Shown here: positions 1 to 23,855 of the stretch, piece by piece
How positions within the stretch are numbered: position 1 is the stretch's first letter
Layout: every line of letters begins with the position of its first letter
Origin: Pseudomonadota bacterium
GTDB lineage: Bacteria; Myxococcota_A; UBA9042; GCA-2863065
Assembly (NCBI GenBank): GCA_005776725.1
Contig: SXOO01000280.1
Location: 7,425-71,424, forward strand
DNA: 64,000 nucleotides
Direction of reading: 5' to 3'
Notes under the pieces: generated by a model
The model's database searches: none
What the model was told of the DNA's origin: nothing
Seen by the model: only the letters and a program-made list of their open reading frames with translations
Program-made: the position numbers and the translations under genes

Positions 1-2130
1 GAGCCCACGGTCACGCGCGACGGCCGCCTCATGGTCTGGCAGGGCCACCCGCAGAACGACGGCAAGATCGACGTACTCGTCTACGCCACCAACGCGGCCG
101 CCTGCGGCACCACGTGGAGCGCCCAGAAGAACCTCTCCCACATGGTCAACGACCCCGCGGTGAAGGGCGTGTACCCGCTGGCCGACAAGGCGTTTCGGGC
201 CGCAGACGGTGCGGCCTACGCCGACGGCGACCTCATCCGCGGCGCCTACCCCTGGCTCTTCCCAGACGGCGACGCCCTCACGTTCACGTCCGTGGTGATC
301 CCGTGCGTCAGCGAGAACAACCCGCCCGGGTGCGACGCGCGGCGCGGTGGGCTGGCGGTGATGGGTTACCCCACCAACTGGGGCCTCGCGCACATCGACG
401 GCGCCCTCAACCCGTCGACCGACGACCAGGTGCGTCTGTTCTTCTCCTCCCCCGGCCCGCACACCTTCCCTCAGCTCCCGGTCACGAGCGGAACGGACGT
501 CTGGCCGTTCTTCGGCTCCAATACGTCGAACCACGGCGACCTCGTCCTCGATGACGGGCTGGACGGGCAGTACGTGGGCGTGTGGCTCATGAACGAGTCG
601 GTAAACAAGGCGGGCAACCTCGACAAGACCCGCACCCCCGACACCAGCGGCTACTTCCACACGGGCACCGTCAATGGGGCCACGTTCCCCACGAAGAACA
701 ACGGGCTCTTCGGCAAGGCCCTCGAGTTCGACGGGGTGGACGACTGGGTGAGCGTGCCGCACGCCGCCTCACACGGCGCCTCCAACGCGCTCACGGTGTC
801 TCTCTGGCTGCGCCCGGACGCGCCGGTCGACTGCGATGGGAACAACAACTACCGGTTCCTGCTGGGTAAAGGCCCCATCGCAGACGGAGCCTGGTCGCTC
901 GTGTTGGAGGAGGGACAGGTGTTCCAGGCGCGGGTGCGTGCTGGCGGAGCCGAGCGCGCCGTGTGGGCCCTGAGCTCGCCGCTGGTCGTGGGCGAGTGGA
1001 GCCACGTGGGCTTCACCTACGAGGCCACCACGGGCGCCATGCGCTTCTACGTGAACGGCATGCTGGCCGGATTGGCGGACCACCCGCCGGCGCCGTTGGA
1101 CGGGTCGAGTCACCCCATCACCATCGGCGGCCCCGGCGGGCCCCGCGCCGAATGCCCAAACGGCGACGGCAACTTCAAGGGCGCCATCGACGAGCTTCGC
1201 GTGTCTCGCGTGGTGCGCGACCTGAGCGTGGCGGCACGCCCGGGCAACCACGCGCGGTTCGTGAGCTGGCAGGTGCCCGCGGAGGTCACCGCGGGCGCCG
1301 CGTTCCAGGCGCAGGTGACCTTCCGGAACACGGGCCGCACGGCGTGGTCGGTCCACACGCTGCATCGCCTCGGGTCCCAGGCCCCACAAGACAACGGCAC
1401 CTTCGGCGCGGGGCGCGTGTCGCTCCCGGGCGGCCGTGTGGAGACCGGCGACACCGTGACCTTTGTCGCCGACCTGGTGGCGCCTGCGGGGCCCGGCGCC
1501 TACGACTTTCAGTGGCGCATGGTGCAGGACGGCGCCGAGTGGTTCGGCGAGCTCACGCCCCTCGTCCAGCTGACGGTGGTGGAGGATACGACCGAGCCCC
1601 CCGACCCCGGCCCTGCGCCGGACGTGACCGAGCCGCAGGATGTGACCGAGCCGCAGGATGTGACCGAGCCGCAGGACGTGACCGAGCCGCACGACGTGAC
1701 CGAGCCGCTGGACGTGACCGAGCCGCAGGACGTGACCGGGCCACCGGATGGTGTGATTCCCAACGACTCCACCGGTGGTGCGCTGGATACTGGGGTGGGG
1801 TGGGACGCGTCGCCGTCGTGGGACGTCCCCCTTGCCTGGGATGCCGGCTGGCCCGCTGACGCAGCCATGGCCACCGACACGCCCGAGGTGGCGGGGGACG
1901 CCAGTCCCTGGGGTGGCCCCGACGCGCGCGGCATTTCGGACGGGCCCGACGCGGGGACTGACTGGGACGCACACGACGGTGCTGCCCCCTCAGGGCTGGA
2001 CGCCAGCCCAACGGTGGCCATGCCACCGCCCGACGACGCGGGCTGCGGCACAACGCGGCAGGCGGGCGGCCGGTGGCCTGTTGCGGCGCTCCTCGCGTTC
2101 GCGCTCCTGGCGTTGGCTCGCCGTCGATGA
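1..2130 (+). CDS. 5'-truncated surface protein with a LamG/concanavalin-like domain, an Ig/CARDB-like domain, 7x DVTEPQ tandem repeats and a C-terminal MYXO-CTERM-like sorting signal
   Basis: The reading frame is open from nt 1 with no in-frame stop upstream of the ATG at 31, and no N-terminal signal peptide is visible. There is a LamG-like segment (GKALEFDGVDDWVSVP...LTVSLWLRPD). The C-terminus GCGTTRQAGGRWPVAALLAFALLALARRR* is Cys, Gly-rich, hydrophobic helix, then an Arg cluster. Confidence 0.7.
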   Translation, partial: EPTVTRDGRLMVWQGHPQNDGKIDVLVYATNAAACGTTWSAQKNLSHMVNDPAVKGVYPLADKAFRAADGAAYADGDLIRGAYPWLFPDGDALTFTSVVIPCVSENNPPGCDARRGGLAVMGYPTNWGLAHIDGALNPSTDDQVRLFFSSPGPHTFPQLPVTSGTDVWPFFGSNTSNHGDLVLDDGLDGQYVGVWLMNESVNKAGNLDKTRTPDTSGYFHTGTVNGATFPTKNNGLFGKALEFDGVDDWVSVPHAASHGASNALTVSLWLRPDAPVDCDGNNNYRFLLGKGPIADGAWSLVLEEGQVFQARVRAGGAERAVWALSSPLVVGEWSHVGFTYEATTGAMRFYVNGMLAGLADHPPAPLDGSSHPITIGGPGGPRAECPNGDGNFKGAIDELRVSRVVRDLSVAARPGNHARFVSWQVPAEVTAGAAFQAQVTFRNTGRTAWSVHTLHRLGSQAPQDNGTFGAGRVSLPGGRVETGDTVTFVADLVAPAGPGAYDFQWRMVQDGAEWFGELTPLVQLTVVEDTTEPPDPGPAPDVTEPQDVTEPQDVTEPQDVTEPHDVTEPLDVTEPQDVTGPPDGVIPNDSTGGALDTGVGWDASPSWDVPLAWDAGWPADAAMATDTPEVAGDASPWGGPDARGISDGPDAGTDWDAHDGAAPSGLDASPTVAMPPPDDAGCGTTRQAGGRWPVAALLAFALLALARRR
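1621..1746 (+). repeat. 18-bp tandem repeat, about 7 copies, encoding (DVTEPQ)n inside the first CDS
   Basis: Direct reading: gacgtgaccgagccgcag repeated with minor variants. Confidence 0.9.
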
Positions 2131-4032: not shown

Positions 4033-5604
4033 GTGCCCCAGCCCCGACCGTTCTCCGCCCTGACGCTGGTCTTCTGCCTCTCCCTGTTCGCGCAAGCCTG
4101 CGGGGATGACACGGCGGCTGGCACGCAGCCTGCGCCCGACACCGCGTCCACGGGAGACCTCCTCCTCGCCGACGCCTCCGACCCGGGCGACACCTCGGCC
4201 GACGGCGTCGACTCCTCGGCATCGAGCGACGCGGAGGGGCAAGAGATCGGCACCGAACCGGACGTGGCCGTCGGCACCGAGCCGGACGTCGGGGTCGATC
4301 GCCCCGAGGGCTGGACCACCGCGACCCACTCGAATGGCGTGCCGCCCAACTTCGCCGAGGTCTTCAGCGACACCGAGGTGAAGCGCATCGACATCGAGAT
4401 CGGCGCCGACCCATGGGAAGCGATGATGGCGGACATGACCGAGATCTACGGCGAGCCCAGCGGGGGTGGCGGCGGTCCGGGTGGCGGGGGGCCAGGCGGG
4501 GGCGGCGGCGGCGGCTTCTCCGAACAAGACCCCATCTTCGTGCCCGCGACGGTGCGCTTCGGAGACCACACGTGGACTCACGTGGGTGTGCGGTTCAAGG
4601 GTAATTCGAGCCTTCGATCCACCTGGACGAGTGGCAACCTCAAGCTGTCGTTCAAGCTCGACTTCGACGAATTCGAAGGCGAGTTCCCCGAGATCGACGA
4701 CCAGCGCTTCCATGGGTTCAAGAAGCTCAGCCTGAAGAACAACTACCAGGACGCTTCACTGGTGCGCGAGAAGGTGATGACGGACCTGTTCAGAGCCGGC
4801 GGAATGGCGGCCTCGCACACCAGCTTCTGTGCGGTCTACGTCGACCGGGGTGACGGGCCGGAGTACTTCGGGCTCTACACCCTCGTCGAGGAGGTGGATG
4901 ACACCCTCATCGAGACGCAGTTCGAGGACGGCGGCAATCTGTACCAGCCGGACGGGACCGCGGCGCAGCTCTCGGAGGGGTCGTTCGACGAGGAGGAGCT
5001 CGGTAAGGAGACCAACGAGGAGGCGGCCGATTACAGCGATGTCCTCGCGCTGCTCGCGGCGCTTCACGACGGCACGCGGACGTCGGACCCGGAGGCCTGG
5101 CGTGCCGCCCTCGACAAGATCTTCGACACCGATGTGTTCCTTCACTACCTCGCCATCAACGGCATCGGCCAGAACTGGGACACCTACGGCCGCATGACCC
5201 ACAACTACTTCATGTACCGTTCGCCCAGCACGTCGAAGTTCGTGTGGATCCCCTGGGACAACAACGAGGCGCTACAAGCCGGCAAGCAGGGCGGCGCGCT
5301 CCCACTCGACTTCGCCGGGGTGCAGTCCGCCACCTGGCCGCTCATCGGGTTCCTCTATGCGGACCCCGTCTACCGCGCGAAGTATCAGGACTGGCTTCGT
5401 CAGACCATCGAGGGCCCCTTCACCGTGGCCGCCATGACCGCGCGCTACGACGCCTACGAAGCGCTGCTGGCCCCCTACGCCGAGGCCGAGCGCTCAGGCT
5501 TCACGTTCCTGAAGAGCGCGTCCGCGTTCGGTGCCGCGTTCGACGCCCTGCGAGCCCATGCGCAGAGCCGCGTCGCCGCGACCGAGAGCTACCTGGGGCT
5601 CTAG
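4033..5604 (+). CDS. CotH kinase-family (spore coat protein H-like) lipoprotein
   Basis: Signal peptide plus lipobox LFAQAC. The CotH-like core is FHGFKKLSLKNNYQDASLVREKVMTDLFRAGGMAASHTSFCAVYVDRGDGPEYFGLYTLVEEVDDT...NLYQP, with an internal poly-Gly linker. Confidence 0.6.
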   Translation: MPQPRPFSALTLVFCLSLFAQACGDDTAAGTQPAPDTASTGDLLLADASDPGDTSADGVDSSASSDAEGQEIGTEPDVAVGTEPDVGVDRPEGWTTATHSNGVPPNFAEVFSDTEVKRIDIEIGADPWEAMMADMTEIYGEPSGGGGGPGGGGPGGGGGGGFSEQDPIFVPATVRFGDHTWTHVGVRFKGNSSLRSTWTSGNLKLSFKLDFDEFEGEFPEIDDQRFHGFKKLSLKNNYQDASLVREKVMTDLFRAGGMAASHTSFCAVYVDRGDGPEYFGLYTLVEEVDDTLIETQFEDGGNLYQPDGTAAQLSEGSFDEEELGKETNEEAADYSDVLALLAALHDGTRTSDPEAWRAALDKIFDTDVFLHYLAINGIGQNWDTYGRMTHNYFMYRSPSTSKFVWIPWDNNEALQAGKQGGALPLDFAGVQSATWPLIGFLYADPVYRAKYQDWLRQTIEGPFTVAAMTARYDAYEALLAPYAEAERSGFTFLKSASAFGAAFDALRAHAQSRVAATESYLGL

Positions 5605-5829
5605 TCGGTCGCGCGGGCGGCCGCGGCCCCGCACCCGTCGCGGTCCGGCATTGGGGCGTTTCGCGCGCGGTGGAGGCCCAGGGGGGCCGAGGCGGTGCTC
5701 GTGGACGCGCAGGGTCGACGACACGCCAGCGGGGGCCTGACCGGGTGTACACCGGAGGCGACGAGGTGACACACTGCGCGAAGTCGTGGTTCGGTCCCCT
5801 TCGCCCGGGCGTCTCCCGGGTCTGACCTC

Positions 5830-6954
5830 GTGGCGGTCGCGCAGGAGAGCCTGGTGAGCCTCGTGGTGGCTATCGCGTTCACGGTCTACCTCTCAGCGGC
5901 AGGGCCATTGCTCTTCGCTAGAGGCGGCAGCGCGCCCGTGGACCTCGGACCTCTCCCCGCAGGGCTCGCGTCCACCGACGCTTCGGCTTGCGCGGGTTGC
6001 CACGCCGAGATCGCTGCCGAGTGGCGTGGCAGCGGCCATGCTTCCTCGTGGACCAACAAGGTGTTTCAGGACGCCTATGCGGTGGAGCCTCTCGCTCCGT
6101 GTCGAAACTGCCATGCGCCCAACAACGACGGCGGCCTCCCCGCGCAGCTCGCTGCCTCCGACGGCGTCTCGTGCAACGTGTGCCATGTGCGAGGCGGACA
6201 CGTCCTCGGGGTCCACGGCGTAACCGTCGCGGCCCACGCCGGGCGGGTGGAGCCGCAGCTCCGAGAGGCCACGTTCTGCGCCAGCTGCCATCAGTTTGGT
6301 TTCTTCAGCGAGGTCGACGGGCAGCAGGTGGAGCTGGCGGAGCCGCAACAAGACACGTGGGGCGAGTGGACTCGGAGCAGCGCCTCCCGCCAGGGCATCT
6401 CCTGTGTGGACTGCCACATGCCTAGGTCGGGCCAGGGGGCGGCCTCGCACCGTAGCCACGCCTTCCTTGGCGGGCGTGACCTCACGATGCTTCGCTCCGC
6501 GGTCACGGCGACCGTCACGGCGCGACGAGAGGGCCAGGATGTGATCGTCGACGCCCGGGTAGTCGCGGCGGCCACTGGGCACTCCTTCCCCACGGGTGAC
6601 CTCTTCCGCCGCGCCGAGATGACCATCCGGGCCGGAGACGCCGTCAAGACGCTGTCTTATGCGCGGCGGTTTCGCGATCACGTCGCGGTCCGACAGGACG
6701 GCCAGATCATCCGCGAGCGCCGCGAAGTAGCTGACACACGCGTGCCGCCGCCCGGCGCGGGCATCGCCCCCACGCGGCAGGTGCGTTTCGTGGGCTCGAC
6801 GGTCGCGGAGGTGACTTGGTCGTTCGACTATCTCATCATGCCCACCATCGACGCCGCCGCGGGCGGGACGCCGGTGGAGCGCCTGGGGTTGTTCCAGGGG
6901 ACAGCCACTGTAGCCACTACGCGTCCGGACCAGCCAACAGCTGGGGAGGAGTAG
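5830..6954 (+). CDS. pentaheme c-type cytochrome (multiheme cytochrome c family)
   Basis: Five CxxCH motifs (CAGCH, CRNCH, CNVCH, CASCH, CVDCH) and an N-terminal hydrophobic anchor/signal. Confidence 0.8.
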   Translation: MAVAQESLVSLVVAIAFTVYLSAAGPLLFARGGSAPVDLGPLPAGLASTDASACAGCHAEIAAEWRGSGHASSWTNKVFQDAYAVEPLAPCRNCHAPNNDGGLPAQLAASDGVSCNVCHVRGGHVLGVHGVTVAAHAGRVEPQLREATFCASCHQFGFFSEVDGQQVELAEPQQDTWGEWTRSSASRQGISCVDCHMPRSGQGAASHRSHAFLGGRDLTMLRSAVTATVTARREGQDVIVDARVVAAATGHSFPTGDLFRRAEMTIRAGDAVKTLSYARRFRDHVAVRQDGQIIRERREVADTRVPPPGAGIAPTRQVRFVGSTVAEVTWSFDYLIMPTIDAAAGGTPVERLGLFQGTATVATTRPDQPTAGEE

Positions 6955-6968
6955 GAGGAGTAACCGCC

Positions 6969-7811
6969 ATGTTGATCCCATTGGCCATGCTGGCGAACCT
7001 CGTCACGTCCGTAACGCCCTTCGGCGGCACTCGGAGCGACCCCGTCGTGGTTCCGCTCCAAGGCTCGCTCAGCGGATTCCAAGCCACATCCACCACGCGC
7101 TGGATCCGCTTCGAGACGCCCACCTGCACACGGTTTCGGCTGGAGGCGGCCTTCTCTCGGGACGACGAACAGGCGGCGTTCTTGGAGGGCTTCGAGGATC
7201 GCGTTGGGTTCTCTTGTGACACGGACGAGCGCGACGCGGACTCTGTGGACTGCGCGCCGCTCGAGTTCGATTCGCAAGGGGCTACCACGGACGTCGGCAT
7301 CTGGGTCCGGAAGTACAGGTCCGTGAAGCTCTCTTGGAGCAGCACCCCGTGCCCAGTGACTCCTGTCGCGCCGGGGCTCTCGGTGCTCCTCCGCGACGCC
7401 CTGTTCGGCTGGAAGTCGGGGCCGACCCCGGCCGAGCTGCGCACGAAGCTCGTCGCTGCTGGGGTGAAGTTCCAGAACGACGAAGGCGAACCTGACCCGA
7501 TGGGGGACGCCGCGACTCTCGACCTTGGGGGAGTGTCGTTGTCGCTCTCCCTCGCGGGCTATTCCGCTGGCGCGACCTTGTCTCTCGATGGGTGTGAGAC
7601 GGGCAATGACATCGAGGTGCTCACCTCGATGGTGCCTCCCGTGCTCGCCGCAGTGGGGCCGCCGACGTTGGTCGTGGGCGCAGGACATTGGTGGCGATGG
7701 CGGGCCAAGAACCCGTATGTCGAAGTAGAACTCGACGTCCAAGAGTGCAGGTACGAACGAGAGACCACGACGCTCGACATCCGCTATCGAAAGACCGGTG
7801 GTCGCAAATGA
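6969..7811 (+). CDS. hypothetical protein (paralog A1 of the duplicated cassette)
   Basis: ATG at 6969 is preceded by a double SD (ggaggagtaggaggag). Paralog of 9512-10354. It has a hydrophobic N-terminus and conserved Cys residues. Confidence 0.6.
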   Translation: MLIPLAMLANLVTSVTPFGGTRSDPVVVPLQGSLSGFQATSTTRWIRFETPTCTRFRLEAAFSRDDEQAAFLEGFEDRVGFSCDTDERDADSVDCAPLEFDSQGATTDVGIWVRKYRSVKLSWSSTPCPVTPVAPGLSVLLRDALFGWKSGPTPAELRTKLVAAGVKFQNDEGEPDPMGDAATLDLGGVSLSLSLAGYSAGATLSLDGCETGNDIEVLTSMVPPVLAAVGPPTLVVGAGHWWRWRAKNPYVEVELDVQECRYERETTTLDIRYRKTGGRK

Positions 7812-9337
7812 GTTGCACCCTCGCCAAGACCGTTCGGGAGCACGCCCCGCGAGCACGCGCGCTCTTGGGGCTCGCCCTCATGCTGCACACAGCCGTGGCG
7901 CGCGCCGCTCCACCGGAAGCACCCGTCGTCCCTGCCAGCCTCGCCCCTGCGGTCAAAGCAGCGCGCGGTATCCTCGCCAAACTCCGTGATAACTGCCTTC
8001 AAGTGCGGTCACGTAACGGCGAGTGGTATGTCGATGAGGAGGAGTACGACACAAAGAAGTGTGCGACCTACCTCGCCGCGCTCATGAAGCCCGACGAGGC
8101 CGTCGTCCACGCGATCGGCCAGGGGGCGCTCAGCCCGTCGTTCTCGCCGGAGGGCTGGGGAGGCGCGATGGCCGAGTGGCCCGGGTTGGTGGCCCACCTT
8201 GGCGAGGTTGGCAGCCCCCTAGCCGTCCAGTACCTGGTGCGCGCCGCTTTTCACCTCGGCAAGAAGTTCGATGAAGACTCGGAAGACCCCGAGTACATGA
8301 GCGTCATCGTGGACGCGCTGCGACTGGCCACCGGCAACGACGTGGGGCGAATGCCTCCCTGGGAGATCGACGAGGACACCCCGACGAAGGTCCGCACCAA
8401 TGCGGCCGACATCGGTAAAGACTGGGCCGCCTGGTACGCGGTCCACTCGGCCGAGACGCCCGAGCAGTGGCGGGCCGCCGGGCTCGCCGCCAGCCGCCTC
8501 GAGCTCTCCTCGCCCGATCCCATCGTGCGTTTCACGGCGATCGAGCGCCAACTCGGGACGGGCGGCGACCACGAGGCCGCACTGCGCTCTCTCGAGTCGG
8601 CTCTCTCCGATCCCCTGGTGAGCGCCGGTTTCGTGGATAGGGCCGCCCGATTCCTCTCGGTAGGCGCCCCCAGCGAGCTGTACGACAGGGCGGGTGACGC
8701 CCGCCAGGCAGCCGTCGCGGCCTTGCCGGCCGGCCCGGATGGCTCCGTCGCGGCGCTCCCGCGAACAGCTCCCAACGTCAAGCGGCTGCTTGCCGCTTGC
8801 ACCAAGGCCTTCGACCAGCTCCGGCTGCGAGACGCGATGGATGCGTGTTCCGCGGCGGCGAAGGCGGACCCAAAGAACGTCACCGCGGAGGTGGGCCGCG
8901 GGTGGGTCCAGCTCGAGGTCGGCGACACCGCGGCCGCCAAGGCAACGGCCGAGGTTGCGCTCGCAAACAAGCCAGGCTCGGTGGGGGCGCTGCAGCTCGC
9001 GGCGGCGGTGGCCACGGTGGAAGGCGACGCGGCCAAGGCCCGGGCCTGGCTGGAGTCGGCAGCGAAGACCAACGCCGACGCCCGTCAGCGGCTCGGCATC
9101 TTGAACGGGCAGCCGCCCGCGAAAACCTGGGTGCGCTACATCGCCCCGCGCCACGCCTGCTGGAAGCGCCGCGGAAACCAAGCGTCCAACGCGTTCTTGC
9201 TCCGTCGCGGCATCAACGACCCGGCGGCCTTCGAGCAAGTCTGGGCCACCTTGCCCAAGCGGGAAAAAGCCAAGCTGACTCGGAAGGGCGTCACGGGCTG
9301 CCCTTTCCAGGCGGACCAGGCCAAACGGACGGAGTAG
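7808..9337 (+). CDS. secreted TPR-like repeat protein (paralog B1)
   Basis: ATGA overlap with the upstream gene, a signal peptide (LLGLALMLHTAVARAAPP) and an alpha-helical TPR-like C-terminal half. Paralog of 10351-11880. Confidence 0.65.
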   Translation: MSCTLAKTVREHAPRARALLGLALMLHTAVARAAPPEAPVVPASLAPAVKAARGILAKLRDNCLQVRSRNGEWYVDEEEYDTKKCATYLAALMKPDEAVVHAIGQGALSPSFSPEGWGGAMAEWPGLVAHLGEVGSPLAVQYLVRAAFHLGKKFDEDSEDPEYMSVIVDALRLATGNDVGRMPPWEIDEDTPTKVRTNAADIGKDWAAWYAVHSAETPEQWRAAGLAASRLELSSPDPIVRFTAIERQLGTGGDHEAALRSLESALSDPLVSAGFVDRAARFLSVGAPSELYDRAGDARQAAVAALPAGPDGSVAALPRTAPNVKRLLAACTKAFDQLRLRDAMDACSAAAKADPKNVTAEVGRGWVQLEVGDTAAAKATAEVALANKPGSVGALQLAAAVATVEGDAAKARAWLESAAKTNADARQRLGILNGQPPAKTWVRYIAPRHACWKRRGNQASNAFLLRRGINDPAAFEQVWATLPKREKAKLTRKGVTGCPFQADQAKRTE

Positions 9338-9341
9338 TCTC

Positions 9342-9506
9342 GTGCGCGCGTCGATCGCAGAGGTGACGCGGTCGCTGGCCTATCTCATCATGCCCACCAT
9401 TGACGCTGCCGCGGGCGGGACGCCGGTGGAACGTCCGGGGTTGTTCCAGGGGACAACCACAGGTGCCACCACGCGTCCGGACCAGCCAACAGCTGGGGAG
9501 GAGTGA
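9342..9506 (+). pseudogene. 55-codon remnant of the pentaheme cytochrome 3' end at the duplication junction
   Basis: It translates to ...YLIMPTIDAAAGGTPVERPGLFQGTTTGATTRPDQPTAGEE*, matching the C-terminus of 5830-6954, but it has no heme motifs or upstream body. Confidence 0.55.
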
Positions 9507-9511
9507 CTGCC

Positions 9512-10354
9512 ATGTTGATCCCACTGGCGATGCTGGCGAGCCTCGGCACGTCCGTAACGCCCTTCGGCGGCACTCGGAGCGACCCAGTCGTGGTCCCGCT
9601 CCAAGGCTCGCTCAGCGGCTTCCAAGCCACGTACACCACGCGCTGGATCCGCTTCGAGACACCCACCTGCACGCGGTTTCAGCTGAAGGCGGCCTTCTCT
9701 CGGCGCGACGTAGACGCGGCGACCTTCGAGGGCGTCAAGGAGGCCGTTCGTTTGTGGTGCGACACCGACGAGCCCAACGCCGTCGGTGTGGATTGCCAGC
9801 CGCTCGAGTTCGACTCGAACGGCGCTACCACAGACGTTGGGATCAGAGTCCGGACGTACGCGTCCACGAAGCTCACTTGGACCAGCGCCCCGTGTCCGGT
9901 GATTCCAGTCGCGCCGGGGCTCTCAGCCCCCCTCCGCGACGCGCTGTTCGGTTGGAAGTCCAGGCCCACGTCGGCCGAGCTGCGGGCGAAGCTCGCCGCA
10001 GCCGGGGTAGAGTTCCACAACGATGACGGGAAACCCGACCCGATGGGAGACGCCGCCAGAGTCGATCTGGCGGGAAAGTCGTTCAACCTATCGTTCGTCT
10101 ACAAGCCCGGCGGCGCGAACTTGTCCCTCGCTGCGTGTGAATTTGAGAGTGGCTTCGAGGAGCTCAGTTCGCTGGCGCCGTCCATCCTCGCTGCGGTTGG
10201 GCCACCGACAGTCCGCGTGAAGGCCGCTTCCTGGAGTCAGTGGCGGGCCAAGAACCCTTATGTCGCAGTGAAACTCAGGCTCCAGGAATGCGGTCACGAC
10301 GAGTCCGACGCGACTCGACTCGAGATCAGGTATGGCAATGGGGGTGTCAAATGA
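9512..10354 (+). CDS. hypothetical protein (paralog A2)
   Basis: SD ggaggag upstream of the ATG. The sequence is colinear with 6969-7811 (MLIPLAMLA..LGTSVTPFGGTRSDPVVVPLQGSLSGFQAT...). Confidence 0.6.
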   Translation: MLIPLAMLASLGTSVTPFGGTRSDPVVVPLQGSLSGFQATYTTRWIRFETPTCTRFQLKAAFSRRDVDAATFEGVKEAVRLWCDTDEPNAVGVDCQPLEFDSNGATTDVGIRVRTYASTKLTWTSAPCPVIPVAPGLSAPLRDALFGWKSRPTSAELRAKLAAAGVEFHNDDGKPDPMGDAARVDLAGKSFNLSFVYKPGGANLSLAACEFESGFEELSSLAPSILAAVGPPTVRVKAASWSQWRAKNPYVAVKLRLQECGHDESDATRLEIRYGNGGVK

Positions 10355-11880
10355 GCGGGAACCTCCGGAGGGCAGCGCTGAAGCGCGGGTGCCGCACAGG
10401 TTTGGCGTTGTGGCTCGCCCTCGTCCTGCTACCGCAGCTCGCGCTCGCCGTGCCGCCCAAGGCCCCGCCCATCCCGGCCGACCTCGCGCCTGCAGTCAAA
10501 GTCGCGCGCGGGATCCTGGCCAAGTTCAGGGAGCATTGTCAGCAGACGCGGTCGCGCAACGGCGAGTGGTTCATCGAGGACGATGACTACGACCGGGAGA
10601 AGTGTCCGACCTACCTGGCAGCGTTACTGAAGACCGATGAGGCTGTCATCCACGCGATCGGACGGGTGGCGCTCAGCCCATCGTTCTCCGCACACGACTG
10701 GGGAGGTGCCATGGGCGACTGGCCCGTACTGGTCGGCCACCTTGGCGAGGTTGGGAGCCCAGTAGCCGTTCAGTACCTGGTGCGCGCCGCGTTCCACCTC
10801 GGGAAGAGCTTCGACCCGGAGTCGGGGGACAGCGAACACATGAGCGTGATCGTGGACGCGTTGGAGCAGGCCACCGTCACCGACGTGGTGCCATTGCCCG
10901 CATCGCGACACGACGAGGACACGTCGACGGAGACCGACACCGAGATGGCCGATATCGGTAGGGCCTGGGCCGCCTGGTACGCGGCGCACGCGGCAGAGAC
11001 ACCGGAGCAGTGGCGAGCGGCTGGGCTGGCGGCCAGCCGCCTCGAGCTCTCCTCGCCGAAGCCGTGGGTGCGTCTCAAGGCGATCGAGCGCCAGCTTGGG
11101 GTGGGCGGTGACCACGAAGCCGCACTGCGCTCTCTGGAGTCGGCCCTCTCCGATCCGCTGGTAAGTGCCGAGTTCGTGGATTCGAGCGACAGGTTCGCCC
11201 GGAGAGGCGCCCCCCGGGAGCTGTTCGCCAGGGCGGAAGCCGCCCGTGACGCGGCCGTCGCCGCGCTGCCCGCCGACCCGAACGGTTCCGTCGCAGCGAG
11301 CCCGCCAACAGCTCCCAACGTCAAACGTCTGCTGGCCGACTGTACCAAGGCGTTCGAACAGCTTCGGCTGCGAGACGCCATGGCCGCGTGCTCTGACGCG
11401 GCGAAGGCAGACCCGGAGAACGTCACCGCCGCGGTCGGACGAGGCTGGGTCCAGCTCGAGTTGGGCGACACTGCGGCGGCTCGGACAACGGCCGAGGTCG
11501 CCCTCGCAGGCAAGCCAGACTCCGTGAAGGCGCTACAGCTCTCGGCGGCGATCGCGACGGTCGAAGGCGAAACGGCCAAGGCCCGGGCCTGGCTGGAGCT
11601 GGCTGCGAAGACGAACGCCGACGCGCGGCAGCGGCTCAAGATCTTGAACGGGCAGCCGCCCTCGACAACCTGGGTGCGCTACATCGCCCCGCGCCACGCC
11701 TGCTGGAGGCGCCGCGGAGCGCAGGCCGCCAACGCATTCCTACTCCGGCGTGGCATCAACGATCCGGCGGCCTTCGAGCGAGTCTGGGCCACTCTTCCCA
11801 AGCGAGAACAAGCCAAGCTGACTCGAAAGGGCGTCGCGGGCTGCCCGATGCACCCGGACGAGGCGAAACGGGCGGAGTAG
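10351..11880 (+). CDS. secreted TPR-like repeat protein (paralog B2)
   Basis: ATGA overlap and a signal peptide. Colinear with 7808-9337. Confidence 0.65.
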   Translation: MSGNLRRAALKRGCRTGLALWLALVLLPQLALAVPPKAPPIPADLAPAVKVARGILAKFREHCQQTRSRNGEWFIEDDDYDREKCPTYLAALLKTDEAVIHAIGRVALSPSFSAHDWGGAMGDWPVLVGHLGEVGSPVAVQYLVRAAFHLGKSFDPESGDSEHMSVIVDALEQATVTDVVPLPASRHDEDTSTETDTEMADIGRAWAAWYAAHAAETPEQWRAAGLAASRLELSSPKPWVRLKAIERQLGVGGDHEAALRSLESALSDPLVSAEFVDSSDRFARRGAPRELFARAEAARDAAVAALPADPNGSVAASPPTAPNVKRLLADCTKAFEQLRLRDAMAACSDAAKADPENVTAAVGRGWVQLELGDTAAARTTAEVALAGKPDSVKALQLSAAIATVEGETAKARAWLELAAKTNADARQRLKILNGQPPSTTWVRYIAPRHACWRRRGAQAANAFLLRRGINDPAAFERVWATLPKREQAKLTRKGVAGCPMHPDEAKRAE

Positions 11881-12053
11881 CTCTGCGAGAGCCACCTGAT
11901 TGTCCCGACCGCGGACGCCCCTACACGCTCGGTCGGTGATGCGAGCCGGAGCATCGCATGGTCGACCTGGGTCGCCTGGGTCGCCCGTGGGCTTCCGTTC
12001 GCGGCGCCGCCAGTGCTAGAGTGGGCCCCGCTTCTGACTAGAGGGAGATCCCG

Positions 12054-12575
12054 ATGGAATGGTGGCAAGCAGAGGGATGGGCCAGTCCGCCGCGGCGCGA
12101 GACGGCCCGCGGACCCGTTACCGTCTATCGAGCCGCAGGCGGGGGCAGCAACGCTCTCGGAAACTGCTTCTTCATCCCCACGAGGAGTCTGACAGGCGCG
12201 GTACAGGGACTCACGGCGCAGGCACTGGAGGCCGACCTCAACGCGGCGCTTTGGGGCAACCTGTTCAGAGAGATCTTCGTGTATTCGATCTTGCCTGGAA
12301 CTGTGTACTACATCGGGCCGGCGGCGCAGTCGGGGCCGATCGGTCGGCCGGATCAGAATGGACAGGTCAGCAATTGGTCTACCTCGATCCGCTCACCGGG
12401 GCTCCTTGAGCAGGTCTCACTCGAGTCGAAGTCTCCTACAGTGGCTAGACGGCTCGCGCGGACGGAAGAGCTGTCGGGAATGGTTACCCAGAAGGGCCGT
12501 TTCCGGCCTCGGGTGGACTCGCACATCTTCGCAGCCGGCCCCGTAGACTCGAAAGGCAGCCCAATCGCTCACTGA
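12054..12575 (+). CDS. hypothetical small protein in a locally lower-GC stretch
   Basis: ATG with SD agagggag 7 nt upstream. Codon usage is atypical for the window (ttt, tat, aga) and there are no recognisable motifs. Confidence 0.3.
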   Translation: MEWWQAEGWASPPRRETARGPVTVYRAAGGGSNALGNCFFIPTRSLTGAVQGLTAQALEADLNAALWGNLFREIFVYSILPGTVYYIGPAAQSGPIGRPDQNGQVSNWSTSIRSPGLLEQVSLESKSPTVARRLARTEELSGMVTQKGRFRPRVDSHIFAAGPVDSKGSPIAH

Positions 12576-12731
12576 GCCGGCGCCTTGAACCGAAGGTGCA
12601 GTCCGGCGGTGCCGTCGGGCCGATACGTAATTGCGCCCGGGGACTCACATTCTGCCAGCCCGGCCGCGCGCTGGGTTGACACGGCACGCAGCGCTCGGTG
12701 ACATGACCACCTGCATCGTCTCGAGGTACCC

Positions 12732-13700
12732 ATGACTCAGCGGCGGATGCTCGCCCTGCTCGCTCTCCTGATCACGCCCCTGGCGTTGGCCGGTCCGCCG
12801 AAGGGGAAGTCCACCTCGGCCCCGCCCGGCTACGTGAAGGTCAAGGCGGGGACGTTCCAGATGGGGTCGCCGCTGGACGAGCCCGGGCGCTACCCCAACG
12901 AGCAGCCTCATCCGGTGCGTCTCACCCGGTCGTTCTGGCTCAAGGCCACGGAGGTGACCCGGGGCGAGTGGAAGGCCCTGATAGGGACGAACCCCTCGCG
13001 CTTCGCGTCCTGCGGCGACGACTGCCCGGTCGAGGGCGTGAGCTGGTACGACGCGATCGCGTACGTGAATGCGCTGTCTCGCCGGGAGAACCTCCCGGAG
13101 TGCTACGTGTTGTCGGGGTGCCTGGGCACCGTCGGCGGCGGGTGCACGAACTGGTCAGAAGGCTCGTGCCGGGGCGACTTCGCGTGCTCCGACGTGACTT
13201 TCAGCGGTACCCGGTGCACCGGGTACCGCCTGCCGACCGAGGCCGAGTGGGAGTACGCGGCACGCGGGGGGTCCACGACGCCCCTCTATACCGGCCGAAT
13301 CACACTGCACGGCGACGAGGCCCCGGAGCTGGACCCGATTGGGTGGTACGCGGCCAATAGCGCCGCGGCCTACGACGGCGCGTTCGACTGCTCCGAGTGG
13401 AAGAAGCTCCCGCCCTCGACGAGCCGTTGCGGCCCCCAGACGGTGGGCAAGAAGGCACCGAACGGCTGGGGTGCCTACGACATGCTCGGCGGCGTCTGGG
13501 AGTGGTGCGGCGACTGGGCCGGCGACTACTCCGGCCGTGCGACCGATCCCATCGGGCCGCCCAGCGGAGACCGCCGTGTCTACCGGGGCGGGTCCTGGGC
13601 CGCGTGGGCGCGGGACCTGCGGGCCGCCAACCGCTTCTCGGTGGTCCCCGAGTACCGCTTCCACCACGTCGGCCTCCGCCCGATCAGGTCCATCCGCTGA
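12732..13700 (+). CDS. formylglycine-generating enzyme (FGE-sulfatase/SUMF1) family protein, secreted
   Basis: Signal peptide; the motifs GSPLDEPGRYPNEQPHPVRL, GVSWYDAIAYVNALS, YDMLGGVWEWCGDW and RVYRGGSWA are typical of the FGE/DUF323 fold. Confidence 0.8.
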   Translation: MTQRRMLALLALLITPLALAGPPKGKSTSAPPGYVKVKAGTFQMGSPLDEPGRYPNEQPHPVRLTRSFWLKATEVTRGEWKALIGTNPSRFASCGDDCPVEGVSWYDAIAYVNALSRRENLPECYVLSGCLGTVGGGCTNWSEGSCRGDFACSDVTFSGTRCTGYRLPTEAEWEYAARGGSTTPLYTGRITLHGDEAPELDPIGWYAANSAAAYDGAFDCSEWKKLPPSTSRCGPQTVGKKAPNGWGAYDMLGGVWEWCGDWAGDYSGRATDPIGPPSGDRRVYRGGSWAAWARDLRAANRFSVVPEYRFHHVGLRPIRSIR

Positions 13701-13837: not shown

Positions 13838-16800
13838 ATGAACCTTCGAACTCTATCGGCTGCAGCCCCGCACGCGGCTTTGCCGCGACTCCTCCTTGCC
13901 CTGCTCATGGTCACAGGCTGCTTCGGGGACTTCGAGCCCGAGAGCCATGCCTTCTGTCGAACCAACGCCGACTGTATCGCCGGGTGGGTCTGCGACGGGG
14001 TCCGGCAGCAATGCGTGAAGGTTGGAAGCGACGTCTCAGGGGTGGATGCGGGCGGCGATGCGCCCGATCCCACCCCCGACACCAGCGGGACTGACACGGC
14101 CGCGACCGACGTGCCGCTCGGGCCCGACCTGCTGGTGGACGACACCGGCCCCGACACCGCGGCGGCCCCCGACCTCTGGGAGCCCGACGACACCGGAGCT
14201 CTGGACGACGCGGGACCCCTGGAAGACGCGTCGGGGACCGACGGGACCGATGGCGTCGATGTGCCGGACTCCAGCGCGGACCTGACGGAGCCCACCGACG
14301 AGGGCCCCACGAGCGACGTCGAGGGAGCCGACGCGCCTCCTGAGTCCGACGCCTCAGACGACGTGTCGCCGCCCGACGTAGGCTGTGTGGACGAGTGCCC
14401 TATCGAGGGTCATCTCTACTGCACGGCGCAGGCATCCGAGCTGAGCCCCTGCGTTCAGCTCGATGGATGCCTGAAGCTGGGCCCTCCCATCGTCTGCCAG
14501 TTTGCGGTCAGTTGCCCGGCTCCTTGTGGTGACGCGCCTTGCGAAGCCACAGGCGCCTGCATCTTCGGCGAGGAGTGCGTGGCAGCGGGCACGATCGATG
14601 AGACCGGGTGCGCCGTGTGCTCGAGCGCGCCTGGCGGCCAGAAGGTCCCCCGCGCGTGCGACGACGGCGATCCTTGCACCGTCGACGCCTGCGATGGCGC
14701 GTGCACCAACACGCCGGCGTCGGGCCCCCCTTGTGACGACGGCGACGCCTGTACCGTGGAGGATCAGTGCGTCTCGGGCGCGTGCGGCGGCTCTGAGGTG
14801 GACTGCGGCGAGGGGAACGTTTGCGCGGCCTCGGCGTGCCATGTCGTCCAGGGTGTGGCGACGTGCGCGCCGGTGTACGCCCCGGACACCACGGCTTGCG
14901 ATGACGGCAACCCCTGCACGGATCTGGACCGCTGCGGGACGGGTGCCACCGCCGGGTCGTGCGTGGGGAGCAGCACGGCCGCCAGCTGTGACGATGGCGA
15001 CGCGTGTACGGATGACGCGTGCGTCGCGAACACCTGCGTGTCCACGCCCAGGTCGTGCGATGACGGCCAGGACTGCACGACCGACGGCTGCGAGGGGGGA
15101 GCGTGCCAGTCCATCGCGCGCCAGGGCACATGCTCAGACGGTAACGCGTGCACGGCGGAGGACGCCTGTGCGGCGGGCCAGTGCGCCGGACAGAAGCGCG
15201 ACTGCGATGACGGTAACCCGTGCACGGCCGACTCCTGCGCGCCCGCGAGCGGTTGCCAGCACGATCCCAAGGCTGGACCGTGTAGCGACGGGCTCTCGTG
15301 CACCCTCGACGATTCGTGCAGTGGCGGCGTGTGCAAGGGGACACTCTTCCCGTGTTCGGACGTCGGCTGCCGAACGACCATTTGCACGGAGCTCGGGCAG
15401 GGCCTGAAGGTCTGCGCGCTCGCGGGCAACAGCGCCCAGGGCAAGGCGTGCGACGACGGCCTCAGCTGTACGACCGACGACGCCTGCGATGGTGCGGGCG
15501 GCTGCTCCGGCCCGGTGCAAGCCGGCTCGTGTGCCATCGACGGGGCCTGCTTCGTGCACAACCAGACCGATCCGAAGGGCCCGTGCCGCCTTTGTAAGTC
15601 GACCAGCCCGACCGCCTGGACGTTCAAGGCGGAGCTGCTGGCCTGCGACGATGGGGACGCGTGTACCACCACATCAGCGTGCTCCCAGGGGAGCTGCGCC
15701 CAGACGGGGACGTTGAGCTGTGACGACCAGAACGCGTGCACGGTCGACAGCTGCTCGCCTCTCTCAGGATGTGTCCATTCGGCGGCGGCGAACTTGACGG
15801 CGTGCGATCGCGACGGGCTGAGCTGCACGACCGACCGATGCATCGGCGGGCAATGCACCTTCGCCAACGTGAGCGTCGGGACTTGCTTCATCGATGGTGC
15901 TTGTCACGAGGTCGACGCGACCCCGTCCGGCCCCGATGCCGACTGTCTCGCGTGTGACCCCTTCACGAATCCGCTCGGGTGGACCCCGATCCCCTTCCTC
16001 GTGGGCCAGGCTTGTAGCTCGAACCCCTGTCGAAGCGGGGCCACGTGTTCGGCGGAAGGCCGGTGTGAGGGAGGAAACGGCCACTCTGGCTCGAGCTGTC
16101 CGGATGGCGTCTGCCTCAGCGGTGACTGCTGGCTGCAGTATCCGGCGCTGGCGGGCCCACAGGGGGATCGCGGTTACAGCTTCACGGTGCCGGGTGGTTG
16201 CTTCGAGCTGGATGTCCGCGTCGCAGGCGCCGGCGGAGGAGAAGGTGGCTACGGAGGGACGATCGGCGGTCGGCTCATCGTCTCGCCGGGGGACATCATC
16301 GCTATGTGGGTCGGCGCGGGTGGTGGTCTAGGCACGGCCGGCCTCGCCGGCGCTGGAGGCGCCGGGACCGTGCGCGGCGGCGATGGAGGCTCAGTGCCGG
16401 ATGGGACCGGCATTGGTGGCAACGGCGGCGGAGCCGCCAGCCTCGTGCACCACAAAGGGCAGATGGTGCTCGTGGGTGGTGGCGGCGGGGGAGCCGCGTT
16501 CTACCAAGCCGGTGGAGGTCCGGGTGGACAGTGGCCCTCGCTTGCGGGGAACAACGGAGGGAGCCCCTATCCGCTCTCGGCGGGGGCGGGTCAGGGTGGG
16601 CCGTCGTCAGGCGGGGTGGCTCCTGTCGGTGGACTCGGGAAGAGCGGGGGCGGCGCCGGCCAACCGGCGGGTGAGGCCGGTGGCGCGGGTGGGGCCGGGA
16701 CCGGGAGCTACGCGAAGGGTGGCGGAGGCGGAGGCGGAGGCTACCGCTGGGGCGGCTCGGGCGGAGGCGGTTGGGGCGGAGGCGGCGCAGCCGACTCCGG

Positions 16801-23777: not shown

Positions 23778-23855
23778 GGGCGGTCTAGTTGCACCCTGAG
23801 CGGTCCGACGTCAACGCGACGCGGGCGGCCGGCGCGTCGAAATCGCTGACGCGCC

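What the first reader, a model, noticed from the sequence alone, without database searches (positions are those of the whole stretch)
6822..11880. Ancient tandem segmental duplication of a two-gene cassette, including its ribosome-binding region and part of the upstream cytochrome gene
6822-9337 and 9367-11880 are colinear. Each carries a 280-aa hydrophobic-N-terminus protein and a roughly 510-aa secreted TPR-like protein joined by an ATGA overlap. Divergence is substantial in coding parts but low in the short leader (ccggaccagccaacagctggggaggag), suggesting a conserved regulatory or translation-initiation element. Neither protein family is recognisable. A preserved pair kept in duplicate suggests a two-component functional unit.
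Basis: seen in the sequence. Interest (0 to 1): 0.55.

Follow-up and report, generated by a model that had tools for sequence, protein, structure and literature searches.

The report
Old tandem duplication beside a cytochrome gene
A 2.55-kb block carrying two genes for exported proteins, plus the tail of the neighbouring multi-haem cytochrome gene, was copied head-to-tail long ago and both copies are still intact; the duplication is ordinary, but the larger protein belongs to an unnamed family that usually sits directly behind this type of cytochrome.

Summary
Window 6785-9337 and 9338-11880 are a head-to-tail duplication: unit about 2552 bp, 81% nucleotide identity. Each copy carries A (280 aa) and B (509 aa) joined by an ATGA overlap. 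Copy 2 begins with a 56-codon relic of the cytochrome gene's 3' end.

Both copies look functional. Reading frames are intact, dS is about 0.5, omega is 0.46 for A and 0.34 for B, and B1 and B2 have diverged at equal rates.

The "conserved leader" is simply the cytochrome's last codons, which contain A's ribosome-binding site (GGAGGAG, 8 nt before the ATG). Its low divergence continues through four-fold degenerate sites of A's first ~80 codons. No RNA structure or Rfam family was found. A gene-conversion tract explains this better than a regulatory element.

A has no detectable relatives anywhere I searched. B does belong to a family. An exhaustive HMMER search found a small unnamed family of signal-peptide proteins built from a HEAT-like solenoid, three TPRs and a Cys-containing helical cap. 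In five independent loci a B homologue lies directly after a homologue of this same pentahaem cytochrome, four with overlapping stop and start codons, and never with A between them.

So the conserved unit is cytochrome plus B, and A is a lineage-specific insertion. Biochemical function remains inferred. Interest is modest.

The parts
5830..6954 (+). Pentahaem c-type cytochrome gene (Cyt). The longest ORF starts at 5830; the gene caller starts it at 5854 (366 aa). It has an N-terminal hydrophobic anchor or signal.
   Evidence: Five CxxCH motifs are visible in the translation. Pfam Cytochrome_C554 scores 34.2 bits against a cut-off of 20.8. The best PDB match is the pentahaem cytochrome c552 5ze8, E 3.5e-9. 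Homologues at 43-53% identity precede B homologues in other loci.
6785..9337 (+). Duplication copy 1: cytochrome tail, A1 and B1.
   Evidence: Alignments.
9338..11880 (+). Duplication copy 2: relic of the cytochrome tail, A2 and B2.
   Evidence: Alignments. Similarity ends within a few bases after the B2 stop codon.
6954..6960 (+). Shine-Dalgarno GGAGGAG of A1, 8 nt before the ATG. A second GGAGGAG at 6945-6951 forms the last sense codons of Cyt; the two belong to a 9-bp local repeat absent from copy 2.
   Evidence: Sequence read directly.
6969..7811 (+). A1: 280-aa orphan protein with a hydrophobic N-terminus and 6 conserved Cys. The predicted fold is an N-terminal beta-sandwich plus a C-terminal alpha/beta domain.
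   Evidence: No family in Pfam, NCBIfam or PADLOC. No homologue other than A2.
7808..9337 (+). B1: 509-aa protein with a Sec signal peptide. It consists of a HEAT-like alpha-solenoid (43-305), three TPRs (322-432) and a C-terminal helical cap (439-495), with 6 conserved Cys.
   Evidence: (pLDDT 87.7).
9339..9506 (+). Relic of the last 56 codons of Cyt. It is in frame but lacks the rest of the gene. The family-invariant Trp has changed to Arg. It now forms the whole B1-A2 spacer and carries A2's Shine-Dalgarno (9497-9503).
9512..10354 (+). A2: paralogue of A1 (68% aa identity).
10351..11880 (+). B2: paralogue of B1 (73% aa identity). It passes the Pfam TPR_19 cut-off.
6830..7210 (+). Low-divergence tract, paired with 9382-9753: the proximal cytochrome tail or relic plus A codons 1-80. 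This is the candidate gene-conversion tract.
   Evidence: Identity is 92-93% against 81% overall. Four-fold sites differ at 11/69 against 124/320 elsewhere, Fisher p 2.5e-4; scan-permutation p 0.07. The relic shows 10/122 differences against 11/45 in its distal part.

Best explanation
Shown: an illegitimate recombination joined a point just after the B stop codon to a point 168 nt before the end of the cytochrome gene. This produced the order Cyt - A1 - B1 - [Cyt tail relic] - A2 - B2. A's ribosome-binding site lies inside the cytochrome's last codons. Because the block included that tail, A2 received a ready-made translation start: the same GGAGGAG with the same 8-nt spacing. The event is old (dS about 0.5). 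Both copies have been kept under purifying selection and have diverged at equal rates. Inferred: a later gene-conversion event re-homogenised about 380 bp (the proximal tail plus the first ~80 codons of A), and this is why the 'leader' looks conserved. Functional reading, inferred from conserved gene order and predicted folds: B is an exported all-helical HEAT/TPR scaffold that partners the membrane-anchored pentahaem cytochrome. It could act as a docking adaptor or as a dedicated assembly chaperone. Its N-terminal solenoid is the part tied to the cytochrome. A is a lineage-specific exported protein with a binding-type beta-sandwich, inserted between Cyt and B. The duplication would then give one cytochrome two diverged A-B adaptor sets, all probably made from one transcript.
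For: Duplication and breakpoints. The junction is seen in a second assembly. Both copies are coding and constrained: for A, pS 0.35 against pN 0.19, omega 0.46; for B, omega 0.34. GC3 is highest in frame. All 6 Cys are conserved in A and all 6 in B. Derived changes are symmetric, B1 40 against B2 46. The relic is degenerate at family-conserved positions (W330R, D to A, L to P, V to G), while the functional tail keeps them. The Shine-Dalgarno sequence and spacing are identical. Conversion tract. No RNA element. The B family is real: 8 representatives at E<1e-30 and 27 at E<1e-10, with full-length hits at 30-38% identity. A cytochrome homologue lies immediately upstream of B homologues in L004, L005, L009 and L010, and of an N-domain-only homologue in L014, with ATGA or GTGA overlaps in four of the five. 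A is absent in all of them. B's fold is a confident all-alpha solenoid plus TPR with no enzyme-like match. No + strand terminator or sigma-70-like promoter was found between the genes.
Against: The cytochrome link is not universal. P0009, P0012 and P0027 have no cytochrome gene upstream, and the short upstream fragment before P0011 is not cytochrome-like. No physical Cyt-B contact was tested, and no Cyt-B fusion protein was found. With only two sequences and no outgroup for A, gene conversion cannot be separated rigorously from local constraint; the unbiased scan-permutation test gives only p = 0.07. The A model has low confidence (pLDDT 59.7), so its beta-sandwich assignment is tentative. A's N-terminus lacks a charged n-region, so its export is inferred mainly from the six conserved cysteines. 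The promoter and terminator scan is a crude E. coli-type consensus.
Confidence: 0.7

Rival explanations
1. The leader (the proximal cytochrome tail and its relic) is kept similar by selection as a translation-initiation or regulatory element. Examples would be translational coupling through a short relic ORF, or an mRNA structure controlling A.
For: The proximal 122 nt of the relic differ at 8%, against 24% in the distal 45 nt (Fisher p 0.008). The figure is also below half the four-fold background (binomial p 5e-4). The Shine-Dalgarno sequence and spacing are preserved, and the relic frame ends in a stop codon that overlaps a possible GTG start of A2.
Against: The same low divergence holds at four-fold degenerate sites inside A codons 1-80 (7/44), so it is not specific to the leader. 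Predicted folds are no more stable than shuffled sequence (z -0.01 and +0.36) and differ between the two copies. There is no Rfam match. Only the roughly 20 nt around the Shine-Dalgarno site need be under selection.
Confidence: 0.2
2. A and B form a self-contained two-component unit, such as an effector with its chaperone or a toxin with its immunity protein. On this reading the position next to the cytochrome is incidental.
For: A and B are translationally coupled by ATGA in both copies and were duplicated together.
Against: B homologues occur without A in every other locus examined and follow the cytochrome directly. A has no relatives at all. PADLOC has no hit.
Confidence: 0.1
3. The tandem arrangement is a metagenome assembly artefact, with two strain variants or two dispersed paralogues stitched together.
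For: The source is a short-read MEGAHIT contig. Another assembly produced a chimeric contig (L001) that switches between copies at their longest shared exact stretch, 41 bp.
Against: The copies differ by 19%, far too much to be collapsed or confused. The junction sequence is unique. The same junction (B1 3' end, relic, A2) is present at 100% identity in that independent assembly. The 145.6-kb ENA contig shows the same order.
Confidence: 0.03
4. One copy is a decaying, non-functional duplicate.
For: Omega is fairly high for A (0.46). There are local stretches with omega of about 1 or more: B residues 161-200 and A residues 41-80.
Against: There are no frameshifts or stop codons in 2.4 kb at dS about 0.5. 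All cysteines and family-invariant residues are kept in both copies. Derived-change counts are symmetric.
Confidence: 0.05

Closest known systems
TPR apocytochrome-c chaperones and haem-lyase accessory proteins (CcmI/CycH, the E. coli CcmH C-terminal domain, NrfG)
   Same: These are TPR-containing helical-repeat proteins that act on the periplasmic side and are dedicated to c-type cytochromes. NrfG is encoded in the same operon as its pentahaem client NrfA (established knowledge). B2 gives a weak hit to PF23914 TPR_CcmH_CycH.
   Different: The hit is far below the cut-off (17.5 against 42 bits). B has a cleavable-type signal peptide rather than a membrane anchor. It carries a large HEAT-like N-domain and a Cys-containing cap that those proteins lack. 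The client cytochrome has only canonical CxxCH sites, so no special lyase is obviously needed.
Pentahaem cytochrome c552 / NrfA-type multihaem cytochromes (PDB 5ze8; Pfam Cytochrome_C554)
   Same: Five CxxCH motifs. Sequence similarity to 5ze8 (E 3.5e-9) and to NrfA around haems 4-5. It passes the Cytochrome_C554 cut-off.
   Different: It is below the cut-offs for NrfA (PF02335 19.5 against 24.1 bits; NCBIfam 13.7 against 595 bits). It has no CxxCK site. It has its own conserved C-terminal domain (GH[AS]FPTGDLFRRAE ... W-x-FDYL-MPT).
Pre-peptidase C-terminal (PPC) / collagen-binding beta-sandwich domains (5sv5, 1nqj)
   Same: The predicted N-terminal domain of A (about residues 20-127) superposes on these domains: TM normalised to target 0.55-0.63, probability 1.0.
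   Different: There is no sequence match to any Pfam family. The model has low confidence (pLDDT 59.7). Foldseek E-values are only about 1e-3. CUB and GOLD sandwiches score about as well.
Ordinary bacterial tandem gene duplications with later partial gene conversion
   Same: Head-to-tail copies, a breakpoint inside a neighbouring gene that leaves a truncated relic, and a mosaic of divergence along the repeat.
   Different: Nothing essential. The only particular point is that the relic supplies the second copy's ribosome-binding site.

Membership tests
Tandem segmental duplication | Two adjacent, head-to-tail, colinear copies with similarity far above chance | tested here: met
   81% identity over about 2.5 kb. 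Copy 2 starts 1 nt after copy 1 ends. There are only two copies in the window.
Tandem segmental duplication | The arrangement is real in the genome and not an assembly product | tested here: inconclusive
   The junction is present in an independent assembly contig and in the 145.6-kb ENA contig. Raw reads could not be examined.
TPR repeat proteins (Pfam TPR_19 / TPR_16) | Score at or above the Pfam gathering threshold | tested here: met
   B2 TPR_19 scores 26.6 bits against a cut-off of 25. B1 scores 17.1 bits, below the cut-off.
TPR repeat proteins (Pfam TPR_19 / TPR_16) | Helix-turn-helix repeat fold | tested here: met
   In the B1 model (pLDDT 87.7), residues 322-432 superpose on 3-TPR proteins with TM normalised to target 0.73-0.81 and rmsd 1.9-2.9 A.
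CcmI/CycH/NrfG apocytochrome chaperone TPR family | Match to PF23914 TPR_CcmH_CycH above the cut-off | tested here: not met
   17.5 bits against 42 for B2; no hit for B1.
CcmI/CycH/NrfG apocytochrome chaperone TPR family | Required for haem attachment to, or maturation of, the neighbouring cytochrome | not testable with these tools
   This needs genetics or biochemistry.
Unnamed cytochrome-linked HEAT/TPR family (B family, defined here) | Full-length sequence homology, including the invariant Cys331, Cys347, Cys451-Trp, Arg-Arg-Gly and Cys498-Pro | tested here: met
   P0005 has E 1e-80 and P0006-P0012 have E 1e-25 to 1e-48. The invariant columns are listed.
Unnamed cytochrome-linked HEAT/TPR family (B family, defined here) | Gene lies immediately downstream of the pentahaem cytochrome homologue | tested here: not met
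   In the window A is interposed (B1), or A plus a cytochrome relic (B2). Among the other nine family members looked up, five are directly adjacent to the cytochrome, three have no cytochrome gene upstream, and one (P0011) has only a short upstream fragment that is not cytochrome-like.
Multihaem cytochrome c (Pfam Cytochrome_C554) | CxxCH haem-binding motifs and a score above the cut-off | tested here: met
   Five CxxCH motifs; 34.2 bits against 20.8.
NrfA cytochrome c nitrite reductase | Family score above the cut-off and a CxxCK active-site haem motif | tested here: not met
   PF02335 19.5 bits against 24.1. NCBIfam NF008339 13.7 bits against 595. All five motifs are CxxCH.
PPC (pre-peptidase C-terminal) domain, for the A N-terminal domain | Sequence match to the Pfam family | tested here: not met
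   No Pfam family at E<=0.1.
PPC (pre-peptidase C-terminal) domain, for the A N-terminal domain | Beta-sandwich fold similarity | tested here: inconclusive
   TM normalised to target is 0.55-0.63 against 5sv5 and 1nqj, but the model pLDDT is 59.7 and E is about 1e-3.
Known cis-regulatory RNA (riboswitch or leader) in the A leader | Rfam covariance-model match or unusually stable fold | tested here: not met
   No Rfam hit at E<=0.1. Fold z-scores are -0.01 and +0.36.
Known anti-phage defence systems | PADLOC model match | tested here: not met
   No hit for Cyt, A, B or the 173-aa ORF.

The most novel reading that the evidence does not exclude
Cyt plus B is an undescribed periplasmic redox module. 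In it, a HEAT/TPR solenoid would be the obligatory partner (docking scaffold or private chaperone) of a membrane-anchored pentahaem cytochrome. In this lineage an orphan beta-sandwich protein A was recruited into the operon. The A-B pair was then duplicated and diverged, giving one cytochrome two alternative adaptor sets with different target specificities.
Probability: 0.2. Interest if true: 0.5.

Novelty: new member of a known kind. Interest (0 to 1): 0.3.

Why it matters
The duplication itself is a textbook event. Its instructive detail is that a truncated piece of a neighbouring gene survives because it carries the next gene's ribosome-binding site. It also shows how a gene-conversion tract can look like a conserved regulatory leader. 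The more useful by-product is the link between an unnamed family of exported HEAT/TPR proteins and a distinct pentahaem cytochrome family, often with overlapping stop and start codons. That link gives a concrete, testable hypothesis for two sets of hypothetical proteins in high-GC environmental bacteria. If B proves to be a dedicated cytochrome partner, it would add a component to multihaem cytochrome biology outside the well-studied model organisms.

Tried and rejected
**Searches for A that found nothing**
- The word-indexed homologue search found only A1 and A2.
- Back-translated pattern scans of genome contigs and JGI metagenome contigs found nothing.
- A PDB sequence search gave only a meaningless hit at E 1.3.
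- An HMM search of the six-frame translations of the window, L002, L005 and L010 found only A1 and A2 themselves.

**Searches for B that were uninformative**
- The word-indexed homologue search found only B itself.
- Repeating it with the 10-sequence family alignment again found only B. Candidates were apparently swamped by Ala-rich words. That search was wasted.
- The genome-contig scan with B found nothing.
- A PDB sequence search with B found nothing.

**Hypotheses tested and rejected**
- A derived from the cytochrome or from B: hhalign probabilities are 0.1-0.2%.
- A Cyt-B fusion protein among long B-family hits: P0027, P0030 and P0046 instead contain two tandem N-domains and no CxxCH.
- A defence system: no PADLOC hit.
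- A structured leader RNA.
- A local burst of positive selection in A residues 57-82: it is suggestive by eye but not significant in the Nei-Gojobori window.

**Tools and sources that did not help**
- The BFVD viral fold search with A gave only weak, generic hits.
- Literature searches for this gene pair and for the sample accession found nothing.
- Source records give these proteins no names.
- The organism could not be identified. High GC and the neighbouring Dicty_CTDC, FGE-sulfatase and CotH genes suggest Myxococcota, which is inference only.
Full report
**1. Observation**

The window is about 70% G+C throughout. Alignment of 6700-9400 against 9300-11950 gives one colinear match: 6785-9346 with 9337-11887, about 2527 aligned positions at 81% identity. 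A global alignment of 6785-9337 against 9338-11880 gives the same picture with only 1-9-nt indels. blastn of the unit against the whole window finds two copies and no other fragment. The period is 2552 bp, and copy 2 starts at the base after the B1 stop codon.

The gene map, read from the sequence, is as follows:

| Feature | Coordinates | Notes |
|---|---|---|
| Cyt | 5830 or 5854 to 6954 | five CxxCH motifs |
| A1 | 6969-7811 | 280 aa |
| B1 | 7808-9337 | 509 aa, ATGA overlap with A1 |
| Cyt tail relic | 9339-9506 | 168 nt |
| A2 | 9512-10354 | 280 aa |
| B2 | 10351-11880 | 509 aa, ATGA overlap with A2 |

GC3 peaks in these frames at 0.80-0.84. That is a little lower than the 0.89-0.92 of the CotH and FGE-sulfatase neighbours.

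**2. Is the arrangement real?**

The window corresponds, at 99.9% identity, to a 145.6-kb ENA metagenome contig with the same gene order.

A 1.6-kb contig from a separate NCBI metagenome assembly (L001) is 100% identical to B2 over its first ~1020 nt. It is then 100% identical to the B1 3' end, the junction, the relic and the start of A2. The switch falls at the longest exact match between the two copies, 41 bp at 9124/11667. This is what a de Bruijn assembler does at a shared k-mer. That contig is therefore chimeric, but it still shows the duplication junction independently. At 19% divergence the copies cannot be collapsed alleles. I give the assembly-artefact reading about 3%.

**3. State of the copies**

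- Amino-acid identity is 68% for A and 73% for B.
- By Nei-Gojobori, A has dS 0.47, dN 0.22 and omega 0.46. B has dS 0.53, dN 0.18 and omega 0.34.
- There is no stop codon or frameshift in either copy.
- All six cysteines of A and all six of mature B are conserved.
- Polarising the B1/B2 differences with eight outgroup homologues gives 40 derived changes in B1 and 46 in B2 (p 0.59).

Both copies are therefore maintained, and neither is decaying. The duplication is old by the measure of synonymous divergence.

**4. The 'leader'**

The sequence ccggaccagccaacagctggggaggag is the end of the cytochrome ORF (...RPDQPTAGEE*). A's Shine-Dalgarno GGAGGAG sits in or next to those last codons, 8 nt before the ATG in both copies. 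Copy 1 has an extra 9-bp local repeat of GGAGGAGTA.

Copy 2 begins with the last 56 cytochrome codons, in frame and without indels, 86% identical. An alignment of five cytochrome homologues shows that this tail is a conserved part of the protein (W-x-FDYL-MPT...). Where the functional tail and the relic differ at conserved positions (W330R, D to A, L to P, V to G), the relic carries the odd residue. The relic is therefore not under protein-level selection.

Divergence is uneven along the repeat:
- The relic shows 11/45 differences in its distal part and 10/122 in the part next to A2 (Fisher p 0.008). The latter is also below half of the four-fold-site background (binomial p 5e-4).
- The low divergence does not stop at the start codon. 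Four-fold degenerate sites differ at 4/25 in the proximal tail and 7/44 in A codons 1-80, against 37/80, 26/61, 28/84 and 33/95 further on (Fisher p 2.5e-4).
- An unbiased scan statistic places the tract at 6822-7205, with permutation p 0.07.

The two leaders have no unusual folding energy (z -0.01 and +0.36), and their predicted structures differ. Rfam finds nothing in 5500-12800.

A conversion tract of about 380 bp explains all of this. Selection is required only for the Shine-Dalgarno and start region. I cannot exclude some added constraint, and I give that rival 0.2.

**5. What the proteins are**

*Cyt.* It passes Pfam Cytochrome_C554 and is most similar to the pentahaem c552 structure 5ze8 (E 3.5e-9). 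It is below the NrfA thresholds and has no CxxCK site. Its N-terminus is hydrophobic, which suggests a membrane anchor or signal sequence.

*A.* It has no family in Pfam, NCBIfam or PADLOC. No homologue other than its paralogue was found in:
- the 5.8-billion-protein word-indexed search;
- genome and metagenome pattern scans;
- PDB sequences;
- the six-frame translations of the window and related loci.

It is unrelated to Cyt or B by profile comparison. An AlphaFold model built from the two paralogues alone is weak (pLDDT 59.7). It shows an N-terminal beta-sandwich (about residues 20-127) and a C-terminal alpha/beta domain. The sandwich resembles PPC or collagen-binding domains, with TM normalised to target 0.55-0.63 and E about 1e-3. 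An upstream in-frame extension is ruled out, because copy 2 has a stop codon there (read). The six conserved cysteines argue for an extracytoplasmic location, which is an inference.

*B.* It has a typical Sec signal peptide with an A-x-A site in both copies. Pfam sees only weak TPRs at residues 330-430. The exhaustive HMMER search of 1.84 billion cluster representatives with the B1/B2 profile found a real family:
- 141 hits at E<=1e-3;
- 27 at E<=1e-10;
- 8 at E<=1e-30.

Full-length members P0005-P0012 are 30-38% identical to B1. They share the invariant residues C331, C347, W366, E370, P447, C451-W452, R466-R467-G468 and C498-P499. The two halves also occur as separate proteins: N-domain-only proteins of about 290 aa, and a C-module of TPR plus cap. 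Some members carry two N-domains.

A model built from 41 family sequences is confident (pLDDT 87.7) and all-helical. It has a HEAT-like solenoid at 43-305, three TPRs at 322-432 and a helical cap at 439-495. PDB fold search returns only generic TPR proteins and no enzyme fold.

**6. Genomic context of the family**

| B homologue | Locus | Upstream gene | Stop/start arrangement |
|---|---|---|---|
| P0005 | L004 | homologue of this window's cytochrome, 53% identity | ATGA overlap |
| P0006 | L005-L008 | cytochrome homologue, 45% | ATGA overlap |
| P0007 | L009 | cytochrome homologue, 43% | 13-nt gap |
| P0008 | L010-L012 | cytochrome homologue, 50% | GTGA overlap |
| P0022 (N-domain only) | L014 | cytochrome homologue, 40% | ATGA overlap |
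| P0009, P0012, P0027 | (P0027: L016-L018; no DNA returned for P0009, P0012) | no cytochrome gene upstream | not applicable |
| P0011 | L013 | short upstream fragment, not cytochrome-like | not applicable |

None of these loci contains anything similar to A.

L005 and L010 lie on 105-kb and 140-kb contigs of the same metagenome as the window, with similar G+C (0.70-0.71).

The recurrent, often translationally coupled pair is therefore cytochrome plus B, and specifically B's N-domain. In this window A has been inserted between them, and the A-B block with the cytochrome tail was then duplicated.

**7. Mechanism proposed**

Shown:
- the structure and age of the duplication;
- the reuse of the cytochrome tail as A2's translation-initiation region;
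- maintenance of both copies;
- B's membership of a cytochrome-linked family of helical-repeat proteins.

Inferred:
- Co-transcription from Cyt to B2. No + strand terminator or promoter-like site lies between the genes, but that scan is crude.
- Gene conversion of 6830-7210.
- B as a periplasmic docking scaffold or private chaperone for the pentahaem cytochrome.
- A as a lineage-specific binding subunit.
- The two A-B sets as diversified adaptors.

The nearest functional analogy is the TPR apocytochrome chaperones CcmI and NrfG. B fails their family test (PF23914, 17.5 against 42 bits), and the cytochrome has only canonical haem sites. I therefore say B may work like them, not that it is one of them.

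**8. Novelty and score**

Tandem duplication with a truncated neighbour and patchy conversion is ordinary. The orphan status of A and the unnamed cytochrome-linked B family are mildly interesting, and they give a testable hypothesis. Nothing here is surprising to a specialist or bears on a long-standing question. Interest is 0.3. The most novel reading still open is a new cytochrome-adaptor module with duplicated, diversified adaptor sets: probability about 0.2, interest 0.5 if true.

Noticed in passing
L001 (NCBI GCA_005801925.1, SXGS01151495.1), compared with window 9124-9164 and 11667-11707: This public contig is a chimera of the B2 5' part and the B1 3' part. It switches at the longest exact match between the two copies (41 bp). 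The predicted protein P0004 (389 aa) in public databases is therefore probably an assembly artefact.
   Followed up: yes
window 1659-1810: The window is 99.9% identical to the ENA contig k141_1111603. The few differences, including an indel, cluster in this short stretch of an upstream 881-aa gene of unknown function. This could be strain variation or an assembly difference.
   Followed up: no
L005 (k141_848025) 8739-11449; L010 (k141_1583617) 6838-9494: Two further cytochrome-B pairs lie on long (105 and 140 kb) contigs of about 70% G+C in the same metagenome as the window. They may be paralogous loci of one large genome or may come from related organisms.
   Followed up: partly
window 12732-13700; L010 10934-13285: An FGE-sulfatase (formylglycine-generating enzyme-like) domain gene lies a few kb downstream of the cytochrome-B pair in both loci. 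The two are 43% identical, and in L010 the domain is fused to a Ser/Thr kinase. This may be a recurrent neighbour.
   Followed up: partly
P0027, P0030, P0046 (about 810-820 aa); L016 6001-8460: Some B-family proteins carry two tandem N-terminal solenoid domains before the TPR and cap module. P0027 has no cytochrome upstream but sits next to a giant Dicty_CTDC cysteine-rich protein. The window also has such a protein 2 kb downstream of B2.
   Followed up: partly
window 7137-7214 (A1 codons 57-82), paired with 9680-9757: Fifteen of these 26 codons differ by amino-acid-changing substitutions, and none differs by a purely synonymous change. The stretch falls in a predicted low-confidence loop of A. 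It is suggestive of diversifying selection, but the windowed dN/dS test is not significant.
   Followed up: partly
window 13907-19102: A giant (1731 aa) secreted protein has two similar halves. Each half has a cysteine-rich repeat region (Dicty_CTDC) followed by a glycine-rich region with a weak ALK_LTK_GRD hit and ends in ...GLVLLRCE. This looks like an internal duplication.
   Followed up: no
window 12054-12575: A 173-aa ORF directly after B2 has a lower GC3 (0.72) and no family hit. L010 has an unrelated 195-aa unknown ORF at the same position after its B homologue.
   Followed up: partly
window 4033-5604 and 23850-24725: A CotH-kinase family protein (Pfam E 8.5e-66) lies immediately upstream of the cytochrome. 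A Dam-family adenine methyltransferase gene lies further downstream.
   Followed up: no
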